Position numbers and translations under genes: made by a program
The notes under the pieces: model-generated
Told to the model about the DNA's origin: nothing
Databases searched by the model: none
What the model saw: only the letters and a program-made list of their open reading frames with translations
Shown here: one piece after another, positions 10,784-50,422 of the stretch
How positions within the stretch are numbered: position 1 is the first letter of the stretch
How the letters are laid out: the number at the start of each line of letters is the position of its first letter
Source of the DNA: an uncultured virus (IMG/VR IMGVR_UViG_3300005805_000085)
Taxonomy: Duplodnaviria > Heunggongvirae > Uroviricota > Caudoviricetes
DNA: 64,000 nucleotides
Strand: one strand, 5' to 3'
Virus record (IMG/VR): IMGVR_UViG_3300005805_000085
Span: 1,963 to 65,962 of that record

Positions 10784-10812
10784 TTGACCCTAAATCTCAA
10801 AAATTATATAAT
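10784..10812 (+). promoter_or_regulatory. T5-type promoter containing GACCCTAAA
   Basis: TTGACC-N17-TATAAT. Confidence 0.8.
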
Positions 10813-10841
10813 ATTTATTCAATAATCAAACTGAGACAATC

Positions 10842-13531: not shown

Positions 13532-14055
13532 TATAGCTAATTGACTAATAAGTAGGACACCCATATGTATAGTGTGGGCCAACCTCACCTGCAGTTAGCT
13601 ATACTATGGCTGTTGACTGGCCCGATATATGGCACTCTAAAGCCTGAAATGGGAAAACTTATTTCTAGTCAACATCCGTAACTGCGCTGCTCACGCTGAA
13701 CCTATAAACTCTAGGCTGGTGACTAGGCTGGGGTCGTACCCCGTAAAGATATTCGACTGTACAACGTGAACAGTGAAGTCTAGAGCAAGCAGGAATGAGC
13801 ACCTGCATATATAGTTCCCGCCACGCTTATATAATCAAATCCCTAGATTATATAGCGCAACAAGGCGAAAAAAGTTACGAGTGATGGTGGACTACGTAAC
13901 TGGACACTGGAGACCTGCGGGCCGTCGCCCAATAGTAAAAAGACACTATGAATCCACTTTAGGGAGTGGGGCCATAGTTCAATACATTAATGTAAGATGG
14001 AGTCGCTCTCCCATTATTCGGTCGCCCCGATAAAATCTAATGTATTGAACTATGG
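13532..14055 (+). ncRNA. Tandem run of stem-closed small RNAs
   Basis: Units 13532-13603, 13605-13680, 13688-13801, ~13811-13949 and 13972-14055 (perfect 18-bp closing stem). Confidence 0.55.
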
Positions 14056-14071
14056 TTTTTTGGAGATAACA

Positions 14072-14398
14072 ATGAGTCGTACTCTAAAAGATAAGCCGCA
14101 TAATGTAATATATCCAGAAGATAACTGGGATTTTGATTTCATTCTACTAGATAATGATCCAAAATCAAGAATTGGTTTTCGTTACATACAAGTTGCGGGC
14201 AAAAAAACTAAAAAGCGTAGAAACTACTGTCATTTTCGCTGGTATAGCACAACTCCTAGCTGGTGGACTCGTATTACAATGACTCGTCCACAACGTCGTC
14301 GTGGCCGTGTGTGGGAGCACACAGTGCTTAAAGCCACAGACTTAGAGCTAGTAGATCCTCCCACAGTAGGACGTAAACCGCACGTATATTATTATTAA
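14072..14398 (+). CDS. Basic hypothetical protein
   Basis: GGAG RBS; STTPSWWTR..RPQRRRGR..RKPHVYYY. Confidence 0.75.
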   Translation: MSRTLKDKPHNVIYPEDNWDFDFILLDNDPKSRIGFRYIQVAGKKTKKRRNYCHFRWYSTTPSWWTRITMTRPQRRRGRVWEHTVLKATDLELVDPPTVGRKPHVYYY

Positions 14399-14479: not shown

Positions 14480-14556
14480 GCAGGGAATAGTGTTAGTGGC
14501 AAGCACGTCTGTCTGTGAAACAGAAAGTTAGGGATCGAAACCCGTTCACCTGCCCA
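14480..14556 (+). tRNA. tRNA-His(GUG), atypical acceptor/T arm
   Basis: TCTGT-ct-GTG-aa-ACAGA; T-loop ATCGAAA; bulged acceptor stem. Confidence 0.7.
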
Positions 14557-14624
14557 GCCAAATAAGATTTGGGAACCAACCCAAACAGCCCCCGTAAGGG
14601 GAATTTAAACACACGGAGATGTGT

Positions 14625-14822
14625 ATGATGGCATATAACGGATTAGACATTATTTCAGTCGATGTTCCGCTAATGCTTAGATTAATGGAATTTGCACGCG
14701 AAGATGCTAAACACGATAAAGATTTGCACTTTGTAGCAGAGCACTTAATCAGGCTAATGCAAACAAATACTCTCCTCACTATGAAACACTATGACACAAT
14801 AGTTGATAGAGGGGGTTTTTAA
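14625..14822 (+). CDS. Small helical hypothetical protein
   Basis: DVPLMLRLMEFAREDAK..DLHFVAE..LTMKHYD. Confidence 0.75.
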   Translation: MMAYNGLDIISVDVPLMLRLMEFAREDAKHDKDLHFVAEHLIRLMQTNTLLTMKHYDTIVDRGGF

Positions 14823-15025
14823 TGGGCGATAAATATTACAAGTTCGTAGAGATTGAGGTTAGCCCTAAACTCATGAAAAAGCTCTTGGAACATATCAAAG
14901 ACCCTAAGGTAACGCAAGATCATATAAACTATATGATGGAAAACTTGATGTGGTTAAGTAAACACGACGAGTGCCTTACCCTAGATGAATATGAAGTAAT
15001 CACAGAGAAACCCATAGTTAGTTAA
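14822..15025 (+). CDS. Small helical protein, probable paralogue of 14625-14822
   Basis: VSPKLMKKLLE..INYMMENL..LTLDEYE follows the same pattern. Confidence 0.7.
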   Translation: MGDKYYKFVEIEVSPKLMKKLLEHIKDPKVTQDHINYMMENLMWLSKHDECLTLDEYEVITEKPIVS

Positions 15026-15100
15026 CTATGGTCGGCAGCTAGGCTTGCCGGCCTAGTAGCCGTTTAACTCCACAAACAATAATAAAAAACGGAGAATAAA

Positions 15101-15859
15101 ATGGCAGAATCAATCACACCTGCAGGCATGATGATGAGTGGCGGCGACGGTCTTTTCGGAGGCGGTGGTCTTATTGGCGGTCTTATCTTAGGCTCGCTCC
15201 TACGCAACAATGGTAATCTCTTTGGAGGAGATGGCGCAGCTGCTGGAGCAACTCTACGTAGTCCGCCTGAGCAAGTTGACGCTAACATGAGCCTCATGCA
15301 AGCAATTGGCGATGTTAATCGTTCTGTTGCTCTAGGCACTGCAACCACAGAAACTAGCAATGCCACACAAACAGGCCAGCTAACAAATGCAATTAACTCA
15401 GCTACTAGCGCAAATCTAATTGCTATTCAAGGTGTCAAAGACAATGTTAGTCAAGGCACAATGATGCTTTCTCAGCAGTTAAATGGTGTTCAGCAGCAAG
15501 TAATGGAAAACCGTTACCAGCTAGCTCAAGACATTAACAATGACGGCGATAAGACTCGTGCTCTAATTACAGCACAATACGAAGCTACCCTAAACCGTCA
15601 GCTAAGCGATGCTAATGCACAAGTTATTGCACTACAAGCTCGTTTTGAAAACGCTGAACGCACTCGTGGTGTTGAGGTCAACACAACCAACAACATCACT
15701 CAGATGCAACAGCAAGCTCAACAGCAGCAACAGTACGGTCAGCTATACAATGCTCTCTGGGGTATTGCTCAGCAAATTCAGAGCACTAACTCAGCAATCA
15801 ATGTTGGTAGTGGAACACAAACCGCTAATCCATCAAACACAAATACAAATATTAGATAA
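15101..15859 (+). CDS. Gly-rich hydrophobic N-terminus plus Q/N-rich coiled-coil protein
   Basis: GLFGGGGLIGGLILGSLL; DGDKTRALI; poly-Q; GGAG RBS. Confidence 0.85.
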   Translation: MAESITPAGMMMSGGDGLFGGGGLIGGLILGSLLRNNGNLFGGDGAAAGATLRSPPEQVDANMSLMQAIGDVNRSVALGTATTETSNATQTGQLTNAINSATSANLIAIQGVKDNVSQGTMMLSQQLNGVQQQVMENRYQLAQDINNDGDKTRALITAQYEATLNRQLSDANAQVIALQARFENAERTRGVEVNTTNNITQMQQQAQQQQQYGQLYNALWGIAQQIQSTNSAINVGSGTQTANPSNTNTNIR

Positions 15860-15875
15860 TCTCTAATTAACGGTT

Positions 15876-15910
15876 GGCCCCCACGTTCAAAAGACTTGGG
15901 GGCGCTTTTA
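15876..15910 (+). terminator. Hairpin/weak terminator after 15101-15859
   Basis: GCCCCCA..TGGGGGC followed by GCTTTT. Confidence 0.5.
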
Positions 15911-15923
15911 CTAGGAGTTATCT

Positions 15924-16421
15924 ATGCTAAATCAAAGACAGCACTTATTGCCCATTATTGGTTGGTGTCCTGTAATACCTCCAGCACCACCAGCAGCTCC
16001 ATGTCCTCCGCCACCCCTACTCGAAGATAATGACCTTTTTATTAATTATAACGGCAGTGGCATGCCTGGTCCTCCGGGACCACCGGGTCCGCCAGGCCCA
16101 CAGGGACCAGAAGGTCCGCAAGGACCACCTGGCACAGTAGCTAATATACCAGTTACGCTTATAGATCAGAGTACATACTCGCCTACTATAGACGAATACT
16201 TTTTAGGCGTTATCTATGATGGCACAACTACCGTTACACTACCTGTAGGTGTGTTAGGCAAAGCCTATATCATCAAAGATAGTGTTGGCGATGCTGAAAC
16301 TAATCCTATTGTAGTTCAAGCTACTGGCTCTACTATAGATGGCGATACCAGCTATACAATTAATGTAAACTGGGCTAGTATTGGCCTAGTTTACAACGGC
16401 ATAGAATGGAATGTAATATGA
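15924..16421 (+). CDS. Collagen-like protein with C-terminal beta-sandwich fibre domain
   Basis: About 8 Gly-X-Y triplets; [18 protein letters not shown]. Confidence 0.85.
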
Positions 16422-16978
16422 GTTACAATCTACCACTAGCCACTAATACAACTTTTGGCGTAATGCAAGCTAGTACAGGTTTAAGTGCTACAACAGGTAT
16501 AGTAACTGCAACTGGTGGAGGCACCGGAGGAGATGTAGGTTACTTTTACGCTAATGTAACTCAGACCAATTTATTACCTATTAACACAGTTACTCTTACA
16601 AATACTACCCTATCACAAGGTATAACTCTTGTAGCTGGCAGTCAACTTACTGTAAGTAAATCCGCTAACTACCTACTACAAGTAACTATTCAATTTGCTA
16701 AAAGCACAAGTGCTGGCGGCGCAGCAACTGGTTTTTTCTGGTTGCGTAAGAATGGTATAGATGTAGCAGATAGTGCTACTGACGTAATAACTACGGCTGC
16801 AGGTGCTGGTGTAGTCCTAGCAGTAAATTACACACTACCACTTCTAGCTGGCGATTACCTAGAGATGGTATGGTCGGCTAATACCACAAATGCAGAACTA
16901 ATTAACATACCAGCACAGCCCGGGCCGCCTGTAATACCCGCTGCTCCTTGTGTTCGTATGACTCTTCTTGAAGTATGA
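16418..16978 (+). CDS. Fibre-repeat plus BclA-C/C1q-like beta-sandwich protein
   Basis: ATNTTFGVMQASTGL; FFWLRKNG..LLAGDYLEMVW. Confidence 0.7.
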   Translation: MSYNLPLATNTTFGVMQASTGLSATTGIVTATGGGTGGDVGYFYANVTQTNLLPINTVTLTNTTLSQGITLVAGSQLTVSKSANYLLQVTIQFAKSTSAGGAATGFFWLRKNGIDVADSATDVITTAAGAGVVLAVNYTLPLLAGDYLEMVWSANTTNAELINIPAQPGPPVIPAAPCVRMTLLEV

Positions 16979-17007
16979 TGCTATAATAAAAATAACAAGG
17001 AAACATC

Positions 17008-17412
17008 ATGGCTTATAATACCCCAGTAACCTCTACCACAAACTATGGTGTAGTTAAAGTTGGTAGTGGAATTAATGTAACTAACGGCGTTATTTCAGTA
17101 GTAGGAAATGAAACTGTAAATACGCATCTAGTAAACAATGCAGCAAGTCCATATACACTAGACAGCGCAGGAGCTACTCCAAACTACTACTTAGGCGTAG
17201 TTGGCACTGGCGCAGCGATTACCATTAACTTAACTGCTGGTACTGATGGCAGAACAGTAGTCATCAAAAGCGAAGCAGGACAAACAAGTGATATTACTAT
17301 AGTGCCTAATGGCGCAGAAACTATTGAAAATGTAGCAAGTTATACTATCCTTGCTGCTACAGACGGCAGTACAACTCTTATATTTCGCGGAACAAATTGG
17401 AACGTAGTCTAA
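17008..17412 (+). CDS. Fibre-repeat plus beta-sandwich protein (same C-domain type as 15924-16421)
   Basis: TSTTNYGVVKVGSGINVTNGVIS; TINL..GRTVVIK..ETIE..W. Confidence 0.75.
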   Translation: MAYNTPVTSTTNYGVVKVGSGINVTNGVISVVGNETVNTHLVNNAASPYTLDSAGATPNYYLGVVGTGAAITINLTAGTDGRTVVIKSEAGQTSDITIVPNGAETIENVASYTILAATDGSTTLIFRGTNWNVV

Positions 17413-17595: not shown

Positions 17596-17811
17596 ATGTC
17601 AGCTTTAAAGATTCACAAATACTGGTGTCAAAAACAAGAACAAGATTACAAAACCATAATGCAAGCTGTAGATGACTTGGGCGCAGCTAGCCTTGCTCTA
17701 GCAACTAACGGTGCTCAAGCCTATACACAGTTCCTACAAGCCCGTGACGATTTTCGAGAATGTTTTACAGAGATAAATAAACACTATCGTTATGTAGAAC
17801 AAGACAGTTAA
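17596..17811 (+). CDS. Hypothetical protein
   Basis: 71-aa helical ORF. Confidence 0.6.
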   Translation: MSALKIHKYWCQKQEQDYKTIMQAVDDLGAASLALATNGAQAYTQFLQARDDFRECFTEINKHYRYVEQDS

Positions 17812-18029: not shown

Positions 18030-18130
18030 GGAAGGGTTGCTAATATTGGCCTTAGGGCGAGCCTTATAAACTCGTAAGCACTGTCCAGATAAGGCAGTTA
18101 ATGTGGGTTCGATTCCCACCCCTTCTACCA
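18030..18130 (+). tRNA. Atypical tRNA with anticodon UAU and long variable arm
   Basis: GGAAGGG/CCCTTCT-A-CCA, loop CT-TAT-AA, extra arm ACTGTC..GGCAGT, canonical T arm. Confidence 0.75.
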
Positions 18131-22235: not shown

Positions 22236-22415
22236 ATGGCTTGGGTATGGGTTATACTATTTTCTGTGTTAGGCACTGGCGGCGAGCACGGAACCAGAGG
22301 CGCATACTCTAGCAGAGCGGAGTGCGAACAAGCACTAATCAAACTTAAACTAGACTACGAAACTAAAGGTAAAACTCTAGTTGGTAGTTGTAGTGTTACG
22401 CAAAAGAAAATATAG
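22236..22415 (+). CDS. Small exported protein
   Basis: Hydrophobic N-terminus; YSSRAECEQA...C. Confidence 0.6.
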   Translation: MAWVWVILFSVLGTGGEHGTRGAYSSRAECEQALIKLKLDYETKGKTLVGSCSVTQKKI

Positions 22416-22758
22416 TTGTATGAAGTTAACCCAAAGGTGCTTTGGACGCGGGTTCGACTCCCGCCTGGTCCACCATAGATACATTACACCATTAACGCCA
22501 CGGGGTTATCTAGAGCTGCAGCTCGAAAAGCACACTGTGAGAAGTGCAGATAACGGTAGTGTATCTTTGATGGGCCAGTCATGGTTTCGACAGGGTGCAG
22601 AGTAGGAAAATGGACAACTCGACAATGCAGAAGTCGTAGGGCTGGGACTACCCGGCTAGAGAAGCAAACAAACTAAACGCAAACGATGAAACGTTCGCAT
22701 TAGCCGCCTAAACTCGGCTTAGGGTTCCAGGTTATCCTCGTAACAGAAAACCTGGACT
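22413..22758 (+). ncRNA. ssrA: Circularly permuted (two-piece) tmRNA
   Basis: Acceptor piece ends GGTTCGACTCCCGCCTGGTCCACCA (22475); coding piece starts GGGCCAG (22572) with G3.U70; tag 22679-22711 reads ANDETFALAA*. Confidence 0.92.
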
Positions 22759-22813
22759 TAAATGGCCATTTGGCATTTTTATTAACAATTCTTGCTCAAC
22801 TGAGGAGAATAAG

Positions 22814-28228: not shown

Positions 28229-28257
28229 TTGACCACACGACCCTAAACTGTTATAAT
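28229..28257 (+). promoter_or_regulatory. T5-type promoter with GACCCTAAA in the spacer
   Basis: TTGACC-N17-TATAAT. Confidence 0.8.
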
Positions 28258-28281
28258 ATTAAACTCTTGTGAAAGTTTAAC

Positions 28282-48147: not shown

Positions 48148-48366
48148 CTAGTCCTTTTTGTGTGGGCTAAACTTTTCAGTAACAATTACACCTAAACCTA
48201 CTAATACTATATACATCATACTATCGTATAGTGTTCCGTCTACTTTATAACCAAAAAATAAATTAGCTACAAAACCTAGGCTACATAGCATAAAAGCTAA
48301 AAATGTTATTACACGTTTGCTGCTTAGGCTGCCGTCTACTCCATCTTGTAGTAGTGATTTAAGCAT
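48148..48366 (-). CDS. Two-TM holin-like protein
   Basis: SSKRV plus two TM helices in the lysis cassette. Confidence 0.55.
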   Translation of the reverse strand: MLKSLLQDGVDGSLSSKRVITFLAFMLCSLGFVANLFFGYKVDGTLYDSMMYIVLVGLGVIVTEKFSPHKKD

Positions 48367-48810
48367 TTAAATCTCCGGATGTGGTGCTTGTGGAGGCTTA
48401 GGTTTTCCGCCGTATCCTGCTTCTGGTTGACCACTAGCAAATAGTACTGGCTCTTGTCTAACGTGCTGCGGTTTAGGTTCTGGTGTACGTATAGCTTCAA
48501 TAGTAGTTTTAAATCCTTCTTGCTGCTGTTTTTGTGCTTGAAGCATTATTTCTTGATCTTCTTTTTTAGCTCCTGCAAGCATAATACCACTAAGTGTACC
48601 CGTTAAGAATGTTGCTATAGGTACAATAAGTTCAAAGAACTTTTGATCAATTGGACTCATAGCATTAAGTGGTTGTGTAACAAATATTATACTGTATAAA
48701 ACTACAAATACAATGCCTGTTAGTGTAAGTGCTAGACAAACCCCTATAAAGAATTTAAGTCTAGCCATTAGTTGTTCTTCGGTATAAATTAGAGTCTCCT
48801 TATTTTGCAC
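48367..48810 (-). CDS. Two-TM membrane protein
   Basis: TM helices; PIATFLTGTLSGIML. Confidence 0.7.
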   Translation of the reverse strand: MQNKETLIYTEEQLMARLKFFIGVCLALTLTGIVFVVLYSIIFVTQPLNAMSPIDQKFFELIVPIATFLTGTLSGIMLAGAKKEDQEIMLQAQKQQQEGFKTTIEAIRTPEPKPQHVRQEPVLFASGQPEAGYGGKPKPPQAPHPEI

Positions 48811-49093
48811 CTTTAGCTCCTCCTTTATCTGGTTGGCACTGTTGACAAGTTTGACCTATCGGTTCAACTCTAGTCTCTGGTGGGCCTAGTCTAGGATCAC
48901 GTTGTCCTTTAAATATGTGTTCAGGACAAGTACGAGTAACGTCGCATAATGGTTTCTGACACTGCTTAGTTTCCCAGTTTTGAGGATCTTGACAAGGATA
49001 TCTAAACCTATCGCTACCAAAAGCAGCTAGTGCAACAGGTAGTGCAAGTAAAATTAACAAGAATAGAAATAGTTTTTTATCACTAATCACCAT
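48800..49093 (-). CDS. Cys-rich periplasmic membrane-anchored protein
   Basis: TM then RYPCQDP.NW...C..P.C....TCPE. Confidence 0.7.
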   Translation of the reverse strand: MVISDKKLFLFLLILLALPVALAAFGSDRFRYPCQDPQNWETKQCQKPLCDVTRTCPEHIFKGQRDPRLGPPETRVEPIGQTCQQCQPDKGGAKGAK

Positions 49094-49716
49094 TAGCCTC
49101 CTAGTATGTGTAAGGCGTGCTCGTAGTGTTTTTTACGATCTTCTATGCCTATTGTACCACCATTAATTCGTTTTGTCAAGGTTAAAATATCCCCTTGGTC
49201 TGCCCAACGATTTAAGCTATTAGTTTCCCAAAACCAGCATGCACTTTGAGCAGCTCCTTCAAAGGTTTCTAGGTAATCTGCTGCTTCTTCTGGTTTGATT
49301 TCTATGCTGTGAGCAAACCAAGTATAATTGTCTTTACCAGTTAGCTGAATAAGTCCACGACCCCGGTATCGCCAACCATCGCCTGAAGCCTCATCACCAT
49401 TACCCATACGATTAGCATATACTCGGTTAGCTATTGCTTCTTGCTTATTAGGTTTACCAGCATATTGTTGCGCTAGTTCATCTGTAGGAAAGTATTTTGG
49501 AAATACCTTGCGTAGGCTTTGCCAACGATAGTTAAGATTTTCTTGTAGGACTGTAAACTCAGCCGACTCATGTGCACACTGTGCAATCCAAGCTGCTTGA
49601 CGTAGTGGAGTGTTAATCTCGTAATCTGGAAATAGTTGATTGATAACTTGTAACCAATAACTTGTATACTTATTTCGTGGTATTAATTTTTGTAATTGTT
49701 CTAGGGTTAGGGTCAT
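49093..49716 (-). CDS. Endolysin, glycoside hydrolase family 19
   Basis: AQCAHES, ENLNY, YRGRGLIQLTG, RINGG..G..DR. Confidence 0.93.
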   Translation of the reverse strand: MTLTLEQLQKLIPRNKYTSYWLQVINQLFPDYEINTPLRQAAWIAQCAHESAEFTVLQENLNYRWQSLRKVFPKYFPTDELAQQYAGKPNKQEAIANRVYANRMGNGDEASGDGWRYRGRGLIQLTGKDNYTWFAHSIEIKPEEAADYLETFEGAAQSACWFWETNSLNRWADQGDILTLTKRINGGTIGIEDRKKHYEHALHILGG

Positions 49717-49976
49717 TTTATGTCCTCAAATAATTTACGTTGAGTTTTGTACCACTCCTGCCACATACTAGATTTTAAGCTACAATCATGGTAAAGATGA
49801 TAATTTTCTGTAACCGTTTTAGCTACATCACTAAGTTTAGCATTTTGTTCTAGTGGTTTTAAGGATTTGCAAGGCTCTAGTAATACTTGTGGAGCTTCTG
49901 GGAATTTGGGTTTTAGTGGAACAGGAGTGCTACAGCCTACTAACGCTAGTGATAATACTATTACTATCGATTTCAT
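49713..49976 (-). CDS. o-spanin (Rz1-like lipoprotein)
   Basis: Lipobox LVGC, Pro-rich, C...C. Confidence 0.8.
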   Translation of the reverse strand: MKSIVIVLSLALVGCSTPVPLKPKFPEAPQVLLEPCKSLKPLEQNAKLSDVAKTVTENYHLYHDCSLKSSMWQEWYKTQRKLFEDIK

Positions 49977-50422
49977 TGTATTTTTTCCGCCGCACGATTA
50001 TGTGCGTCTACAAATGGTTTAGGAATTTCACACTTAGTGTCATACTTAACTACTTCTCTGTCAACATACTGTACTATATTTTGACCGCGTTCGCGTACTA
50101 TTTTCTGTTGCACAACGACTTTTTCTACTATTTTAATATTTTCTTTTGCTGCCTCAGCCTCAGCTTGTGCTAGTTTAACTTCTAGCTCTTTTATCCTAGC
50201 CTGCCAAGCACGTTCATTAGCTATAGATCCTAACATATAGACTCCAATAACTACAAGTATAATTGACCCAACTTGTAGTGGAGTTTTGTATACATGAATT
50301 ATGGGTAGTGGAATAAACTTAAGTAGATAAGTTACTCCCAATCCAACTAATCCTAGGGCTAGTACCACATAAAATAGCCACCAAGGCAGCCATTGAAGAA
50401 TCCACATTGCATCTCCTACCAT
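49973..50422 (-). CDS. i-spanin (Rz-like)
   Basis: TM helices then coiled coil, C.IP. Confidence 0.75.
   Translation of the reverse strand: MVGDAMWILQWLPWWLFYVVLALGLVGLGVTYLLKFIPLPIIHVYKTPLQVGSIILVVIGVYMLGSIANERAWQARIKELEVKLAQAEAEAAKENIKIVEKVVVQQKIVRERGQNIVQYVDREVVKYDTKCEIPKPFVDAHNRAAEKIQ

What the first reader, a model, noticed from the sequence alone, without database searches (positions are those of the whole stretch)
14625..17412. Fibre/appendage-like six-gene module inserted in the tRNA region, far from virion genes
Seen: two small paralogues; a protein with a Gly-rich hydrophobic N-terminus (GLFGGGGLIGGLILGSLL) and long Q/N-rich coiled coil, followed by a hairpin; then a collagen-like protein and two proteins sharing the N-terminal motif M(S/A)YNxPxxxxTx(F/Y)GV, with beta-sandwich heads. 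The module is on the early strand, opposite the tail genes, and no Sec signal peptides are evident. Inference: a major-subunit plus minor tip-adhesin system building a trimeric fibre on the infected cell or capsid, for example against grazing or superinfection, or for adhesion.
Basis: partly seen in the sequence, partly recalled or inferred. Interest (0 to 1): 0.8.

Follow-up and report, generated by a model that had tools for sequence, protein, structure and literature searches.

The report
Mobile mini-fibre cassette of freshwater phage
An uncultured T5-like phage carries, among its tRNA genes, a conserved and movable gene set for a 26-nm rod protein and three very short fibre proteins built from ordinary phage-fibre parts, but where the assembly sits is still unknown.

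Summary
All six genes are real, on the + strand and bracketed by tRNA genes.

- g1/g2 are paralogues (hhalign 96%).
- g3 has a Gly-rich hydrophobic segment and a single predicted 175-residue helix.
- A strong hairpin follows g3. It is conserved in 71 of 79 relatives against 5 of 237 shuffles.
- g4 has nine collagen triplets plus a beta-sandwich of the T4 gp9/gp10-N ("XD1") / depolymerase-C type.
- g5 has a TNF/C1q-like head.
- g6 has the g5 N-terminal motif plus the g4-type head.

The genes co-occur. Of 62 unique g3-derived loci, 60 carry 1-5 such fibre genes just downstream. The cassette sits elsewhere in a syntenic relative and shows mosaic exchange.

g3 founds a large unnamed phage family of 482 clusters. 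In distant phages it stands without these fibres, next to terminase, head, tail or lysis genes.

Best reading (about 0.5): an accessory, virion-borne mini-fibre set for host-surface binding. Location is not shown, and a membrane-anchored role for g3 is not excluded. This scan reached the same reading earlier on other DNA.

The parts
14619..14822 (+). g1, 67-aa acidic protein of unknown role; candidate fibre chaperone (inferred only)
   Evidence: ORF. A g1-like ORF lies beside the module in 23 unique forms, before g3 or after the fibres. Paralogue of g2: hhalign 96.3%. No Pfam or PHROG hit.
14822..15025 (+). g2, 67-aa paralogue of g1
   Evidence: Start overlaps the g1 stop (TAATG). Ten unique homologues in related loci.
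15025..15057 (+). GC-rich hairpin after g2, without a U-tract
   Evidence: The 79-nt stretch 15022-15100 folds at -23.4 kcal/mol, z -3.59, with 0 of 200 shuffles as stable.
15101..15859 (+). g3, 252-aa rod protein: Gly-zipper hydrophobic segment (about 17-34), one long helix (56-230, about 26 nm if straight), conserved C-terminal tail ending ...NTNTNIR
   Evidence: AF2; alignment A3. Family of 482 clusters at E<=1e-3. No Pfam family; the only PHROG hits are to unnamed families. No PDB sequence relative, best E 0.14. The open frame starts only 5 codons upstream of the ATG.
15877..15910 (+). Terminator-like hairpin plus short U-run after g3
   Evidence: Conserved with different stems in relatives: 71 of 79 at <= -16 kcal/mol, against 5 of 237 shuffles and 3 of 79 in-gene controls.
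15924..16421 (+). g4, 165 aa: Pro-rich N-terminus, conserved D-x-D-L-F-I-N-Y motif, nine collagen triplets, C-terminal XD1-type beta-sandwich
   Evidence: The HMM of the g6-type head hits g4 residues 85-168 at E 2e-19.
16418..16978 (+). g5, 186 aa: shared fibre N-terminal motif, Gly-rich linker, TNF/C1q-like jelly-roll head
   Evidence: Alignment A1. AF2 pLDDT 85.6. Foldseek top hits are BxpB, BclA C-terminal domain, ExsFA, 4-1BBL, cyanophage A4 portal-tail chain and A-1(L) short tail fibre. PDB profile gives E 0.024 to ExsFA.
17008..17412 (+). g6, 134 aa: same N-terminal motif as g5, then an XD1-type beta-sandwich head like that of g4
17596..17811 (+). g7, 71-aa protein that follows the fibres in most close relatives; probable last gene of the cassette
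   Evidence: tblastn synteny. Sixteen unique homologues. No family hit.

Best explanation
This is a self-contained, movable accessory-fibre cassette of a clade of roughly 100-kb T5-like freshwater phages.

The parts, as I read them:
- g3 makes a coiled-coil rod of about 26 nm, with a greasy Gly-zipper near its N-terminus and a strictly conserved C-terminal tail.
- The hairpin after g3 lets g3 be made in excess over the genes behind it.
- g4, g5 and g6 are very short trimeric fibres. Each has a proximal attachment piece: a Pro-rich segment plus a collagen triple helix in g4, and a shared N-terminal motif in g5 and g6.
- Each also has a distal beta-sandwich head of a kind that phages use on fibres and spikes: XD1 / depolymerase-C type in g4 and g6, and TNF/C1q type in g5.
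- g1, g2 and g7 are small proteins that may help folding.

I think the products assemble in the cytoplasm and ride on the virion as whiskers, side fibres or capsid fibres. There they would give reversible first contact with host surface glycans, and the heads would be swapped between phages to follow hosts.

Shown: gene structure, domain kinds, co-occurrence, mobility, mosaicism, the conserved hairpin.

Inferred: trimer state, g3-fibre contact, virion location, glycan binding, chaperone roles.
For: 1. Co-occurrence. Of 62 unique loci found with g3 alone that hold at least 2.5 kb downstream, 60 have 1-5 XD1-type genes within 3.5 kb. 51 have a collagen plus XD1 gene and 23 have a TNF-like gene.

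2. Moves as a unit. In the complete 124-kb relative (L036/G003) the set g3 + fibres + small gene lies between PhoH/SOD and RNR. In the window, the corresponding PhoH-RNR junction (44.4-47.9 kb) lacks it. In L070-type loci the fibres lie upstream of g3.

3. Mosaic exchange. In L018/L020/L021 the flanks are 94-100% identical to the window (g1, g2, g7, g8), yet g3 is 74%, g4 67%, g5 35% and g6 89% identical.

4. Virion-type domains.
- The head profile hits T4 gp10 residues 67-144 at E 6e-4.
- It also hits PF25692 in 16 of 38 members, PF07880 in 3 of 38 and phrog_20556 'baseplate protein' in 5 of 38.
- An Atlas cluster carries PF07880 on 35% of its members.
- The g5 head is nearest to BxpB and BclA, and to phage fibre knobs.
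- Short freshwater-phage fibres with TNF-like heads and a separate chaperone are known (Pam3 gp24/gp25, PMC9608196, abstract and passages).

5. No export signals are seen in g4-g6 (by eye).

6. Distant g3 relatives sit in late or structural surroundings.
- In phiPLPE, gp38 lies between the head and neck genes, beside tail-fibre genes and MS-confirmed virion proteins.
- In At2 it lies between a 1348-aa tail protein and the endolysin/spanin genes.
- Terminase, portal and head families are the commonest neighbours in 9 distant loci.

7. The hairpin after g3 is conserved.

8. These domains occur nowhere else in the window. In five near-complete relatives every match at E <= 1e-10 lies in the module; the one other match is weak (E 0.007) and near a contig end. 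The cassette is therefore an add-on, not part of the core tail.
Against: - No virion proteomics, imaging or timing data exist for any carrier.
- The cassette is on the strand of replication genes, among tRNAs, far from the tail genes.
- g3 is conserved across very different phages: a T5-like phage, a dwarf myovirus and At2. That is hard to square with docking to one particular virion protein, and fits a generic partner such as a membrane.
- In 11 distant loci g3 has no XD1, TNF or collagen gene beside it. g3 therefore does not need these fibres.
- The Gly-zipper is unexplained by a plain fibre model.
- The whole-protein Pfam scores of the window's own g4 and g6 are below the curated cut-offs.
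Confidence: 0.5

Rival explanations
1. g3 is a membrane-anchored envelope protein. Its Gly-zipper acts as a weak, SAR-like signal anchor and its 26-nm helix spans the periplasm. It would act in lysis control, superinfection exclusion or DNA entry. The fibre genes would then be cargo that settled behind the g3 terminator in one clade.
For: - The Gly-zipper and the extreme C-terminal tail are the most conserved parts across 482 clusters and across phage types. This fits a generic host partner.
- The helix length of about 26 nm is near the width of a Gram-negative periplasm (that width is recalled, not from a call).
- g3 homologues lie next to lysis cassettes in L156, At2 and L036.
- Many members have basic residues and a 40-130-aa segment before the zipper, as in type II anchors.
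- g3 occurs without the fibres.
Against: - Hydrophobicity is borderline. The median Kyte-Doolittle 19-residue maximum is 1.51. Only 36 of 132 members reach 1.6 and only 1 reaches 1.9, with about 7 Gly per window.
- The flanking charge bias is weak and points the other way (0.48 K/R upstream against 1.05 downstream).
- The window appears to have its own TM protein plus lipoprotein pair beside an endolysin-like gene at 49.1-50.4 kb (by eye).
- g3 and the fibres move together, yet the fibres have no export signal.
- No match to spanin, holin or Sie families in Pfam or PHROGs.
Confidence: 0.17
2. g3 is a morphogenetic factor: a scaffold, ruler or assembly platform for fibres or heads. It would be made in large amounts and be absent from the finished virion. 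g4-g6 would be true virion fibres that attach elsewhere.
For: - g3 is predicted as one long helix with disordered ends, as scaffolding and assembly proteins often are.
- The hairpin implies high expression.
- Neighbours in distant phages are terminase, portal and head genes.
- gp38 carries no MS note in phiPLPE.
Against: - Cultured T5-like phages lack g3. tblastn of the window's g3, At2's and phiPLPE's homologues against 50,697 phage records found only At2 and phiPLPE. It is therefore not a core assembly factor.
- The middle of the rod varies between near-identical genomes, as exposed host-contact proteins do.
Confidence: 0.13
3. g3 is a virion-borne, membrane-active rod that forms a helical conduit or anchor in the host envelope at infection. 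By layout it would be an analogue of the phiX174 H pilot protein: a Gly-rich hydrophobic N-terminus followed by a long Q/N-rich helix.
For: - The layouts resemble each other. The g3 features are; the phiX174 H layout is recalled, with the gene fetched.
- The segment is conserved across phage morphotypes.
Against: - No homology: hhalign probability 0.2% and BLASTP E 0.019 on low-complexity stretches.
- Myoviruses and siphoviruses already have tape-measure-based entry, so the need is unclear.
- No oligomer model was obtained.
Confidence: 0.07
4. The genes are only neighbours. They would be unrelated accessory genes kept together by descent in a recombination-tolerant tRNA region, with no joint assembly.
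For: - tRNA regions of large phages collect accessory genes (recalled).
- Complex prediction gave no usable answer, so contact between the products is untested.
- g3 stands alone in distant phages.
Against: - Order and adjacency are kept in 60 of 62 loci across g3 identities of 53-93%.
- The set keeps together when found at another genome position.
- Start/stop overlaps g1/g2 and g4/g5 suggest coupled translation.
- g4, g5 and g6 share modules with each other.
Confidence: 0.08

Closest known systems
XD1-type beta-sandwich of T4 gp9/gp10 N-terminus and CBA120 TSP4-N (branched receptor-binding complexes); Pfam PF07880 and PF25692
   Same: The C-terminal ~85 aa of g4 and g6 match T4 gp10 residues 67-144 by profile (E 6e-4), PF25692 in 16 of 38 family members and PF07880 in 3 of 38. 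According to PMC8825819 (abstract and passages), this fold occurs in trimeric fibre and baseplate adaptors, and the same fold binds glycans in StcE and CpaA.
   Different: - Here the domain is at the C-terminal end of 130-165-aa proteins, not at the N-terminal baseplate end of large spikes.
- The window's own g6 scores 17.1 bits against a cut-off of 25 for PF25692 and does not reach PF07880.
- No XD2 or XD3 docking domains were found.
BclA / BxpB (ExsFA) exosporium proteins, and TNF-like knobs of phage fibres (Pam3 gp24, cyanophage A-1(L) short tail fibre, PRD1 P5)
   Same: - The g5 head folds as a TNF/C1q-like jelly roll. Foldseek gives BxpB 8d02 at E 6e-8 (TM 0.60/0.74), then BclA C-terminal domain, ExsFA, the A4 portal-tail chain and A-1(L) 8ke9.
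- g4 has the BclA-like order: short N-terminal peptide, collagen repeats, globular C-terminal domain.
- PRD1 P5, with a collagen-like motif plus a TNF-like knob, is recalled.
   Different: - Sequence likeness is marginal (E 0.024-0.2).
- The collagen part and the TNF-like head are on different proteins here.
- There is no spore context.
- Trimer formation and any g4-g5 contact are untested.
Trimeric coiled-coil virion fibres: T4 fibritin, P22 tail needle gp26, reovirus sigma1 (all recalled)
   Same: A long single helix of about 175 residues between a short anchoring N-terminal part and a small C-terminal element. Reovirus sigma1 likewise has a hydrophobic N-terminal anchor (recalled).
   Different: No sequence relative in the PDB (best E 0.14) and none in Pfam. 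The Gly-zipper and the ...NTNxR tail have no counterpart in these proteins. The oligomer state is unknown.
i-spanin Rz and SAR-anchored phage proteins (T4 RI, SAR endolysins; recalled)
   Same: A weakly hydrophobic, Gly-rich N-proximal segment followed by a long helical part of periplasm-like length. It lies next to lysis genes in three lineages.
   Different: No family match and no partner lipoprotein beside it. A separate spanin-like pair appears to be present in the window (by eye). The fibres that travel with g3 lack export signals.
phiX174 H DNA pilot protein
   Same: Gly-rich hydrophobic N-terminus plus a long Q/N-rich helix (layout recalled; gene fetched).
   Different: Not homologous: hhalign probability 0.2%. 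It also belongs to a different virus realm and has a different C-terminal design.

Membership tests
Collagen triple-helix repeat (PF01391) | Uninterrupted G-X-Y repeats rich in Pro, reaching Pfam's gathering score | tested here: inconclusive
   Nine uninterrupted triplets, G45-V71. Pfam gives 19.0 bits against a cut-off of 27.2. The profile of 30 g4 homologues hits a collagen-like peptide, 1nay, at E 1.2e-4. Relatives carry 8-20 triplets.
T4 gp9/gp10 N-terminal (XD1) domain, PF07880 | Significant profile match to the family | tested here: inconclusive
   The family profile hits T4-type gp10 chains at E 6.4e-4 to 7.6e-3. PF07880 is matched by 3 of 38 members (best 1.3e-4), but not by the window's g6 at E<=0.01.
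T4 gp9/gp10 N-terminal (XD1) domain, PF07880 | Nine-stranded mixed beta-sandwich fold packed as a trimer | not tested
The Atlas holds no model of g6.
Phage depolymerase C-terminal beta-sandwich, PF25692 | Pfam gathering score | tested here: not met
   The window's g6 scores 17.1 bits against a cut-off of 25. 16 of 38 relatives match at E<=0.01, best 1.1e-5. It is a related domain; membership of the window protein is not established.
TNF/C1q-like jelly roll (BclA C-terminal domain / BxpB / ExsF type) | Ten-strand jelly-roll fold | tested here: met
   AF2 pLDDT 85.6, at or above 87 in every 10-residue block from residue 41 on. Foldseek finds 371 PDB matches at E<=1e-3. The top ones are BxpB, BclA, ExsFA and 4-1BBL at probability 1.00, TM 0.51-0.60 by query and 0.65-0.74 by target.
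TNF/C1q-like jelly roll (BclA C-terminal domain / BxpB / ExsF type) | Sequence-level family membership and trimer formation | tested here: inconclusive
   The profile against PDB sequences gives E 0.024 (ExsFA), 0.086 (ExsF) and 0.21 (BxpB). The trimer was not modelled.
Intrinsic terminator | GC-rich stem-loop directly followed by a U-run | tested here: inconclusive
   The stem is strong and conserved. The U-run in the window is only 4 U, and the consensus scan did not list it. Of the 76 hairpins at <= -12 kcal/mol (among 79 unique relatives), 49 have at least 4 U in the next 8 nt by a crude count. Termination itself was not measured.
i-spanin (Rz-like) | N-terminal transmembrane domain | tested here: inconclusive
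   The best Kyte-Doolittle 19-residue window is 1.43 in the window's g3, and the family median is 1.51.
i-spanin (Rz-like) | Family match, and an adjacent or embedded o-spanin lipoprotein | tested here: not met
   No PHROG or Pfam spanin hit. The genes next to g3 are g2 and g4, with no conserved lipobox.
phiX174 H pilot protein | Detectable homology | tested here: not met
   hhalign probability 0.2%.
T5-like phages (for the host genome of the cassette) | Replication genes closest to T5-like phages, a large tRNA block, long direct terminal repeats | tested here: inconclusive
   The DNA polymerase is 48.5% identical to the Vibrio phages Thalassa, Gary and AG74; that these are T5-like is recalled. 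There are 20 tRNA genes plus a tmRNA. Three relatives are classed as having direct terminal repeats. Capsid and tail genes are not in the window.

The most novel reading that the evidence does not exclude
The cassette does not decorate the virion at all. g3 would be the founding member of a large, unrecognised class of phage rods. These rods would insert into the host inner membrane through a weak, releasable Gly-zipper anchor and reach across the envelope. Together with the short lectin-like fibres, g3 would build an infected-cell structure, for example one that shuts the door to superinfecting phages or times lysis.
Probability: 0.13. Interest if true: 0.8.

Novelty: new variant of a known kind. 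Interest (0 to 1): 0.5.

Why it matters
If the reading is right, this clade of abundant freshwater phages carries a plug-in host-recognition kit. The kit is separate from the tail-fibre genes seen in the window, is built from the smallest versions of standard fibre parts, and is exchanged head by head between genomes. That makes it a compact natural model for how receptor-binding modules are combined.

The rod protein g3 is the more open question. It defines a family of hundreds of clusters in uncultured lytic phages. The family has no Pfam family, no named PHROG and no solved relative. Two cultured carriers, Iodobacter phage phiPLPE and Acinetobacter phage At2, make its location and role directly testable.

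Tried and rejected
1. blastn of the module against 50,697 phage records found no match.

2. Complex prediction with g3 residues 150-252 x3 and g4 x3 returned the verdict 'no answer' (score 0.00, controls not run). It says nothing either way.

3. A late-promoter motif: upstream regions of the - strand fibre genes looked alike by eye. The pattern CATATAWA, however, gave 13 matches against 9.8 expected, and 20 of 100 shuffles did as well. Dropped.

4. The sigma-70 / terminator consensus scan of 13.5-18.2 kb was at background level (8 promoter-like sites against 10.1 expected, 6 terminator-like against 3.9). It did not list the g3 hairpin.

5. Names for the g3 family: none of the 10 clusters looked up carry a name. 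The best 120 of 2214 hits carry only 'hypothetical protein', plus one evidently misplaced methyltransferase label. The Atlas gave only unnamed viral clusters.

6. Prophage or host search: the first alignment (A4) was too diverse for the tool. A5 gave only 2 hits, both in MAG contigs, so there is no host clue.

7. Sequencing runs: 24 runs hold small shares of the stretch. Contigs of four metatranscriptome libraries cover pieces of g1 and g3, and in one run g4-g6, at 88-99% likeness. The tool states that contig depth cannot rank genes and that DNA may be present, so this is not used as evidence of expression or habitat.

8. g1 family against the 84-aa protein that follows the fibres in L036-type loci: hhalign probability 0.1%. 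They are not related.

9. The original phiPLPE paper is not held. PMC3391216 does not mention gp38 (find mode only), and its supplements could not be seen.

10. A tally of neighbours in 9 distant loci did not show tail-fibre families among the 25 commonest. It showed terminase, portal and head families, RIIA and nucleotide enzymes. My idea that g3 always sits beside fibre genes is therefore not supported beyond this clade, phiPLPE and At2.


Full report
**What the window is.** The window is 64 kb of a 65,962-bp IMG/VR viral record that CheckV rates 62% complete. It holds 20 tRNA genes and a tmRNA on the + strand between 10.7 and 25.3 kb. Replication genes follow on the + strand: DnaB-like helicase, DNA polymerase, helicase, SbcC-like nuclease and ribonucleotide reductase. 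Tail-fibre-like genes lie on the - strand from 54 to 63.5 kb. The DNA polymerase is most like that of the Vibrio phages Thalassa, Gary and AG74 (48.5% identity). From memory these are T5-like, and no call tested that. Three close relatives are complete genomes of 99-124 kb with direct terminal repeats.

**The observation.** All six ORFs are present as described.
- g1 and g2 (67 aa each) overlap by one base. They are true paralogues: pairwise E 1e-5 and profile-profile probability 96.3%, E 1.7e-9.
- g3 (252 aa) carries the quoted Gly-rich hydrophobic string at residues 17-34.
- With a 35-row alignment, AlphaFold2 predicts a single uninterrupted helix from 56 to 230. Residues 1-52 and 231-252 are disordered (mean pLDDT 70.8, about 80-93 in the helix core). 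A straight helix of that length is about 26 nm.
- The hairpin after g3 folds at -21 kcal/mol (z -2.4) and is followed by four U.
- g4 (165 aa, good Shine-Dalgarno) has a Pro-rich N-terminus, nine G-X-Y triplets and a C-terminal domain.
- g5 most likely starts at 16418, overlapping the g4 stop.
- g5 and g6 share their first 36 residues (E 1e-6).
- Rfam finds two more tRNA-like genes, at 14481-14553 and 18030-18127. The module is therefore bracketed by tRNAs on both sides.

**What the parts are.** Single-sequence Pfam and PHROG scans gave only weak hits.

- *g5.* A 30-row alignment gave a confident model (pLDDT 85.6). Its head is a TNF/C1q-like jelly roll. The best PDB matches are B. anthracis BxpB, the BclA C-terminal domain, ExsFA and 4-1BBL. 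They also include phage fibre parts: a cyanophage A4 portal-tail chain, the A-1(L) short tail fibre and the phi812 spike knob. At sequence level the likeness to ExsFA and BxpB is marginal (E 0.024-0.21).
- *The g6/g4 head.* A 38-row profile matches residues 67-144 of T4-type gp10 (E 6e-4 to 8e-3). Scanned one by one, 16 of 38 members match PF25692 (phage depolymerase C-terminal beta-sandwich), 3 match PF07880 (T4 gp9/gp10 N-terminal) and 5 match phrog_20556 (baseplate protein).
- The paper on CBA120 TSP4-N (PMC8825819, abstract and passages) describes this 'XD1' sandwich in T4 gp9, gp10 and TSP4. It notes the same fold in the glycan-binding domains of StcE and CpaA. I could not model g6, so the fold itself is untested here.
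- *g4.* Its collagen stretch is short. It falls below Pfam's cut-off but is consistent across 30 homologues.
- In sum, g4, g5 and g6 are very small fibre-type proteins, each with a distal beta-sandwich head of a kind used on phage fibres, spikes and baseplates.

**Is it a unit?** Yes, within this clade.
- Searches with g3, g5 and g6 in IMG/VR gave 36, 7 and 34 loci. A g3 profile matched 229 loci, of which 80 were kept.
- I counted only loci found with g3 and made them unique. Of 62 with at least 2.5 kb downstream, 60 have one to five XD1-type genes within 3.5 kb. 51 have a collagen plus XD1 gene and 23 have a TNF-like gene. L028 and L033 have none by my HMMs, although tblastn had found a 31%-identical g4-like stretch in L028.
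- The order g3, then g4, then the others is kept.
- In the complete 124-kb relative, the set lies between PhoH/superoxide dismutase and ribonucleotide reductase. In the window that junction is empty. The set has therefore moved as a block.
- In three contigs the flanking genes are 94-100% identical to the window, yet g3 is 74%, g4 67%, g5 35% and g6 89% identical. That is the mosaic pattern typical of host-recognition genes.
- The module's domains occur nowhere else in the window. In five near-complete relatives they do not occur elsewhere either, apart from one weak match (E 0.007) near a contig end.
- A strong hairpin right after g3 is found in 71 of 79 unique relatives at <= -16 kcal/mol. 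The same threshold is reached by 5 of 237 shuffles and 3 of 79 in-gene controls, and the stems differ in sequence. This fits a design in which g3 is made in excess of the genes behind it.

**The rod protein g3 beyond this clade.**
- A profile search of 1.84 billion representatives found 482 clusters at E<=1e-3 and 314 at E<=1e-10. Nearly all span the whole profile.
- The shared layout is a variable N-terminal piece of 10-130 aa, the Gly-zipper, a long helix with a conserved D-G-(D/E)-K-T-R-A-L motif, a Q-rich stretch, and a tail that ends the protein.
- None of the 10 clusters looked up has a name. No Pfam family matches, and only two unnamed PHROGs match: 7 and 5 of 56 members. No PDB sequence matches.
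- The family is almost absent from bacterial genomes: 2 hits, both in MAG contigs.
- Two cultured phages carry it. In Acinetobacter phage At2 it lies between a 1348-aa tail protein and the endolysin/spanin genes. In Iodobacter phage phiPLPE it is gp38, labelled 'putative tail-fiber protein'. It lies between the head and neck genes, next to a tail-fibre gene and two virion proteins confirmed by mass spectrometry; gp38 itself carries no such note.
- In 11 distant IMG/VR loci the g3 homologue has no XD1, TNF or collagen gene beside it. Its commonest neighbours are terminase, portal and head genes, together with RIIA and nucleotide enzymes.
- g3 is therefore older and wider than the fibre set, and it usually lies in or at the edge of late genes.

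**How it most likely works.** I put about 0.5 on an accessory virion fibre.
- In this reading the g3 rod and the three mini-fibres assemble in the cytoplasm, perhaps with g1, g2 and g7 as helpers, and ride on the particle to make first contact with host surface sugars.
- For it speak the virion-type domains, the lack of visible export signals in g4-g6, the mosaic exchange, and the late or structural surroundings of g3 elsewhere. A known precedent is the short TNF-headed fibre with a separate chaperone in the freshwater phage Pam3 (PMC9608196).
- Against it speak the position among early-strand genes, the absence of any proteomic or imaging data, and above all the Gly-zipper.
- That segment and the extreme C-terminus are the best-conserved parts across phages of very different build. 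This suggests a generic partner such as a membrane.
- The segment's hydrophobicity is borderline for a membrane span (median 1.51; 36 of 132 members reach 1.6), much like the releasable anchors of some phage lysis proteins (recalled).
- Hence the main rival (0.17): g3 is an envelope protein, and the fibres are passengers behind its terminator.
- The block movement of g3 with the fibres and the fibres' lack of export signals argue against that rival.
- Other rivals are an assembly factor absent from virions (0.13), an envelope-piercing rod analogous to phiX174 H (0.07; homology excluded), and mere neighbourhood (0.08).

**Comparison with the known, and novelty.**
- The fibre proteins are new, minimal combinations of known domain kinds.
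- The cassette as a movable add-on in a tRNA block, led by an uncharacterised rod family, is a new variant of phage accessory-fibre systems rather than a new category.
- I found no paper on the g3 family. The searches were made, and none was aimed at the family by name, since it has none.
- This scan had already reached much the same reading on two other genomes (notes e1-6013019 and e1-6034631). I re-derived the rod model, the family size, the domain assignments and the mobility independently here.
- The second note's 'two in-frame starts' does not apply to this window, because the frame opens only five codons before the ATG. Some relatives do have the longer form.

**Verdict.** Interest is moderate (0.5): the feature is real, conserved and unexplained in its key protein, but most of it is made of ordinary fibre parts, and its location can be settled only at the bench.

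Noticed in passing
window 13569-13942 (+): The stretch between tRNA-Tyr and ORF 13997-14398, where no protein-coding gene is evident, is covered by contigs of three metatranscriptome libraries at contig depths 23.6, 116 and 120, far above its neighbours. No Rfam family matches at E<=0.1. It folds at z -2.2. It may be an abundant non-coding RNA of the tRNA region.
   Followed up: partly
window 14481-14553 and 18030-18127 (+): Rfam finds two tRNA-like genes (29.8 and 39.9 bits) that ARAGORN did not list. They directly bracket the module.
   Followed up: partly
window 22383-22802 (+); L058 7441-7816: A phage-borne tmRNA with tag peptide ANDETFALAA. A relative carries one with ANDEVFALAA.
   Followed up: no
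window 48148-50422 (-): A likely lysis cassette: small TM proteins, a 207-aa endolysin-like ORF, an 87-aa ORF with a lipoprotein-like N-terminus and a 149-aa TM protein. PhoH-like and RNR genes lie next to it. This was read by eye, helped by the homologous block in L036. It was not tested with family searches.
   Followed up: no
L036 4649-5469: In the 124-kb relative, a 98-aa protein consisting of the XD1-type domain alone and a 175-aa superoxide-dismutase-like ORF lie just upstream of the g3 homologue. The SOD assignment is by eye.
   Followed up: no
L056 3664-4560, L036 5515-6579, L070 7165-8358 and others: Many g3 homologues have an in-frame N-terminal extension. It is either a 45-50-aa helical piece or a 100-150-aa beta-rich domain, and the conserved 'MAE...' start then lies inside the ORF. 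The window's g3 has no such extension.
   Followed up: partly
window about 10790-10830 and about 28230-28270 (+): Near-consensus sigma-70 promoters (TTGACC, 17 nt, TATAAT) lie upstream of ORFs 10842 and 28282. This was seen by eye. None is seen upstream of g1 or g3.
   Followed up: no
L036 8062-8313; L070, L074, L076, L077; L159 8743-9081: A conserved 84-113-aa protein follows the fibres, or g3 itself, in more distant lineages. It is unrelated to g1. At2 and phiPLPE also have a small ORF right after their g3 homologue.
   Followed up: partly
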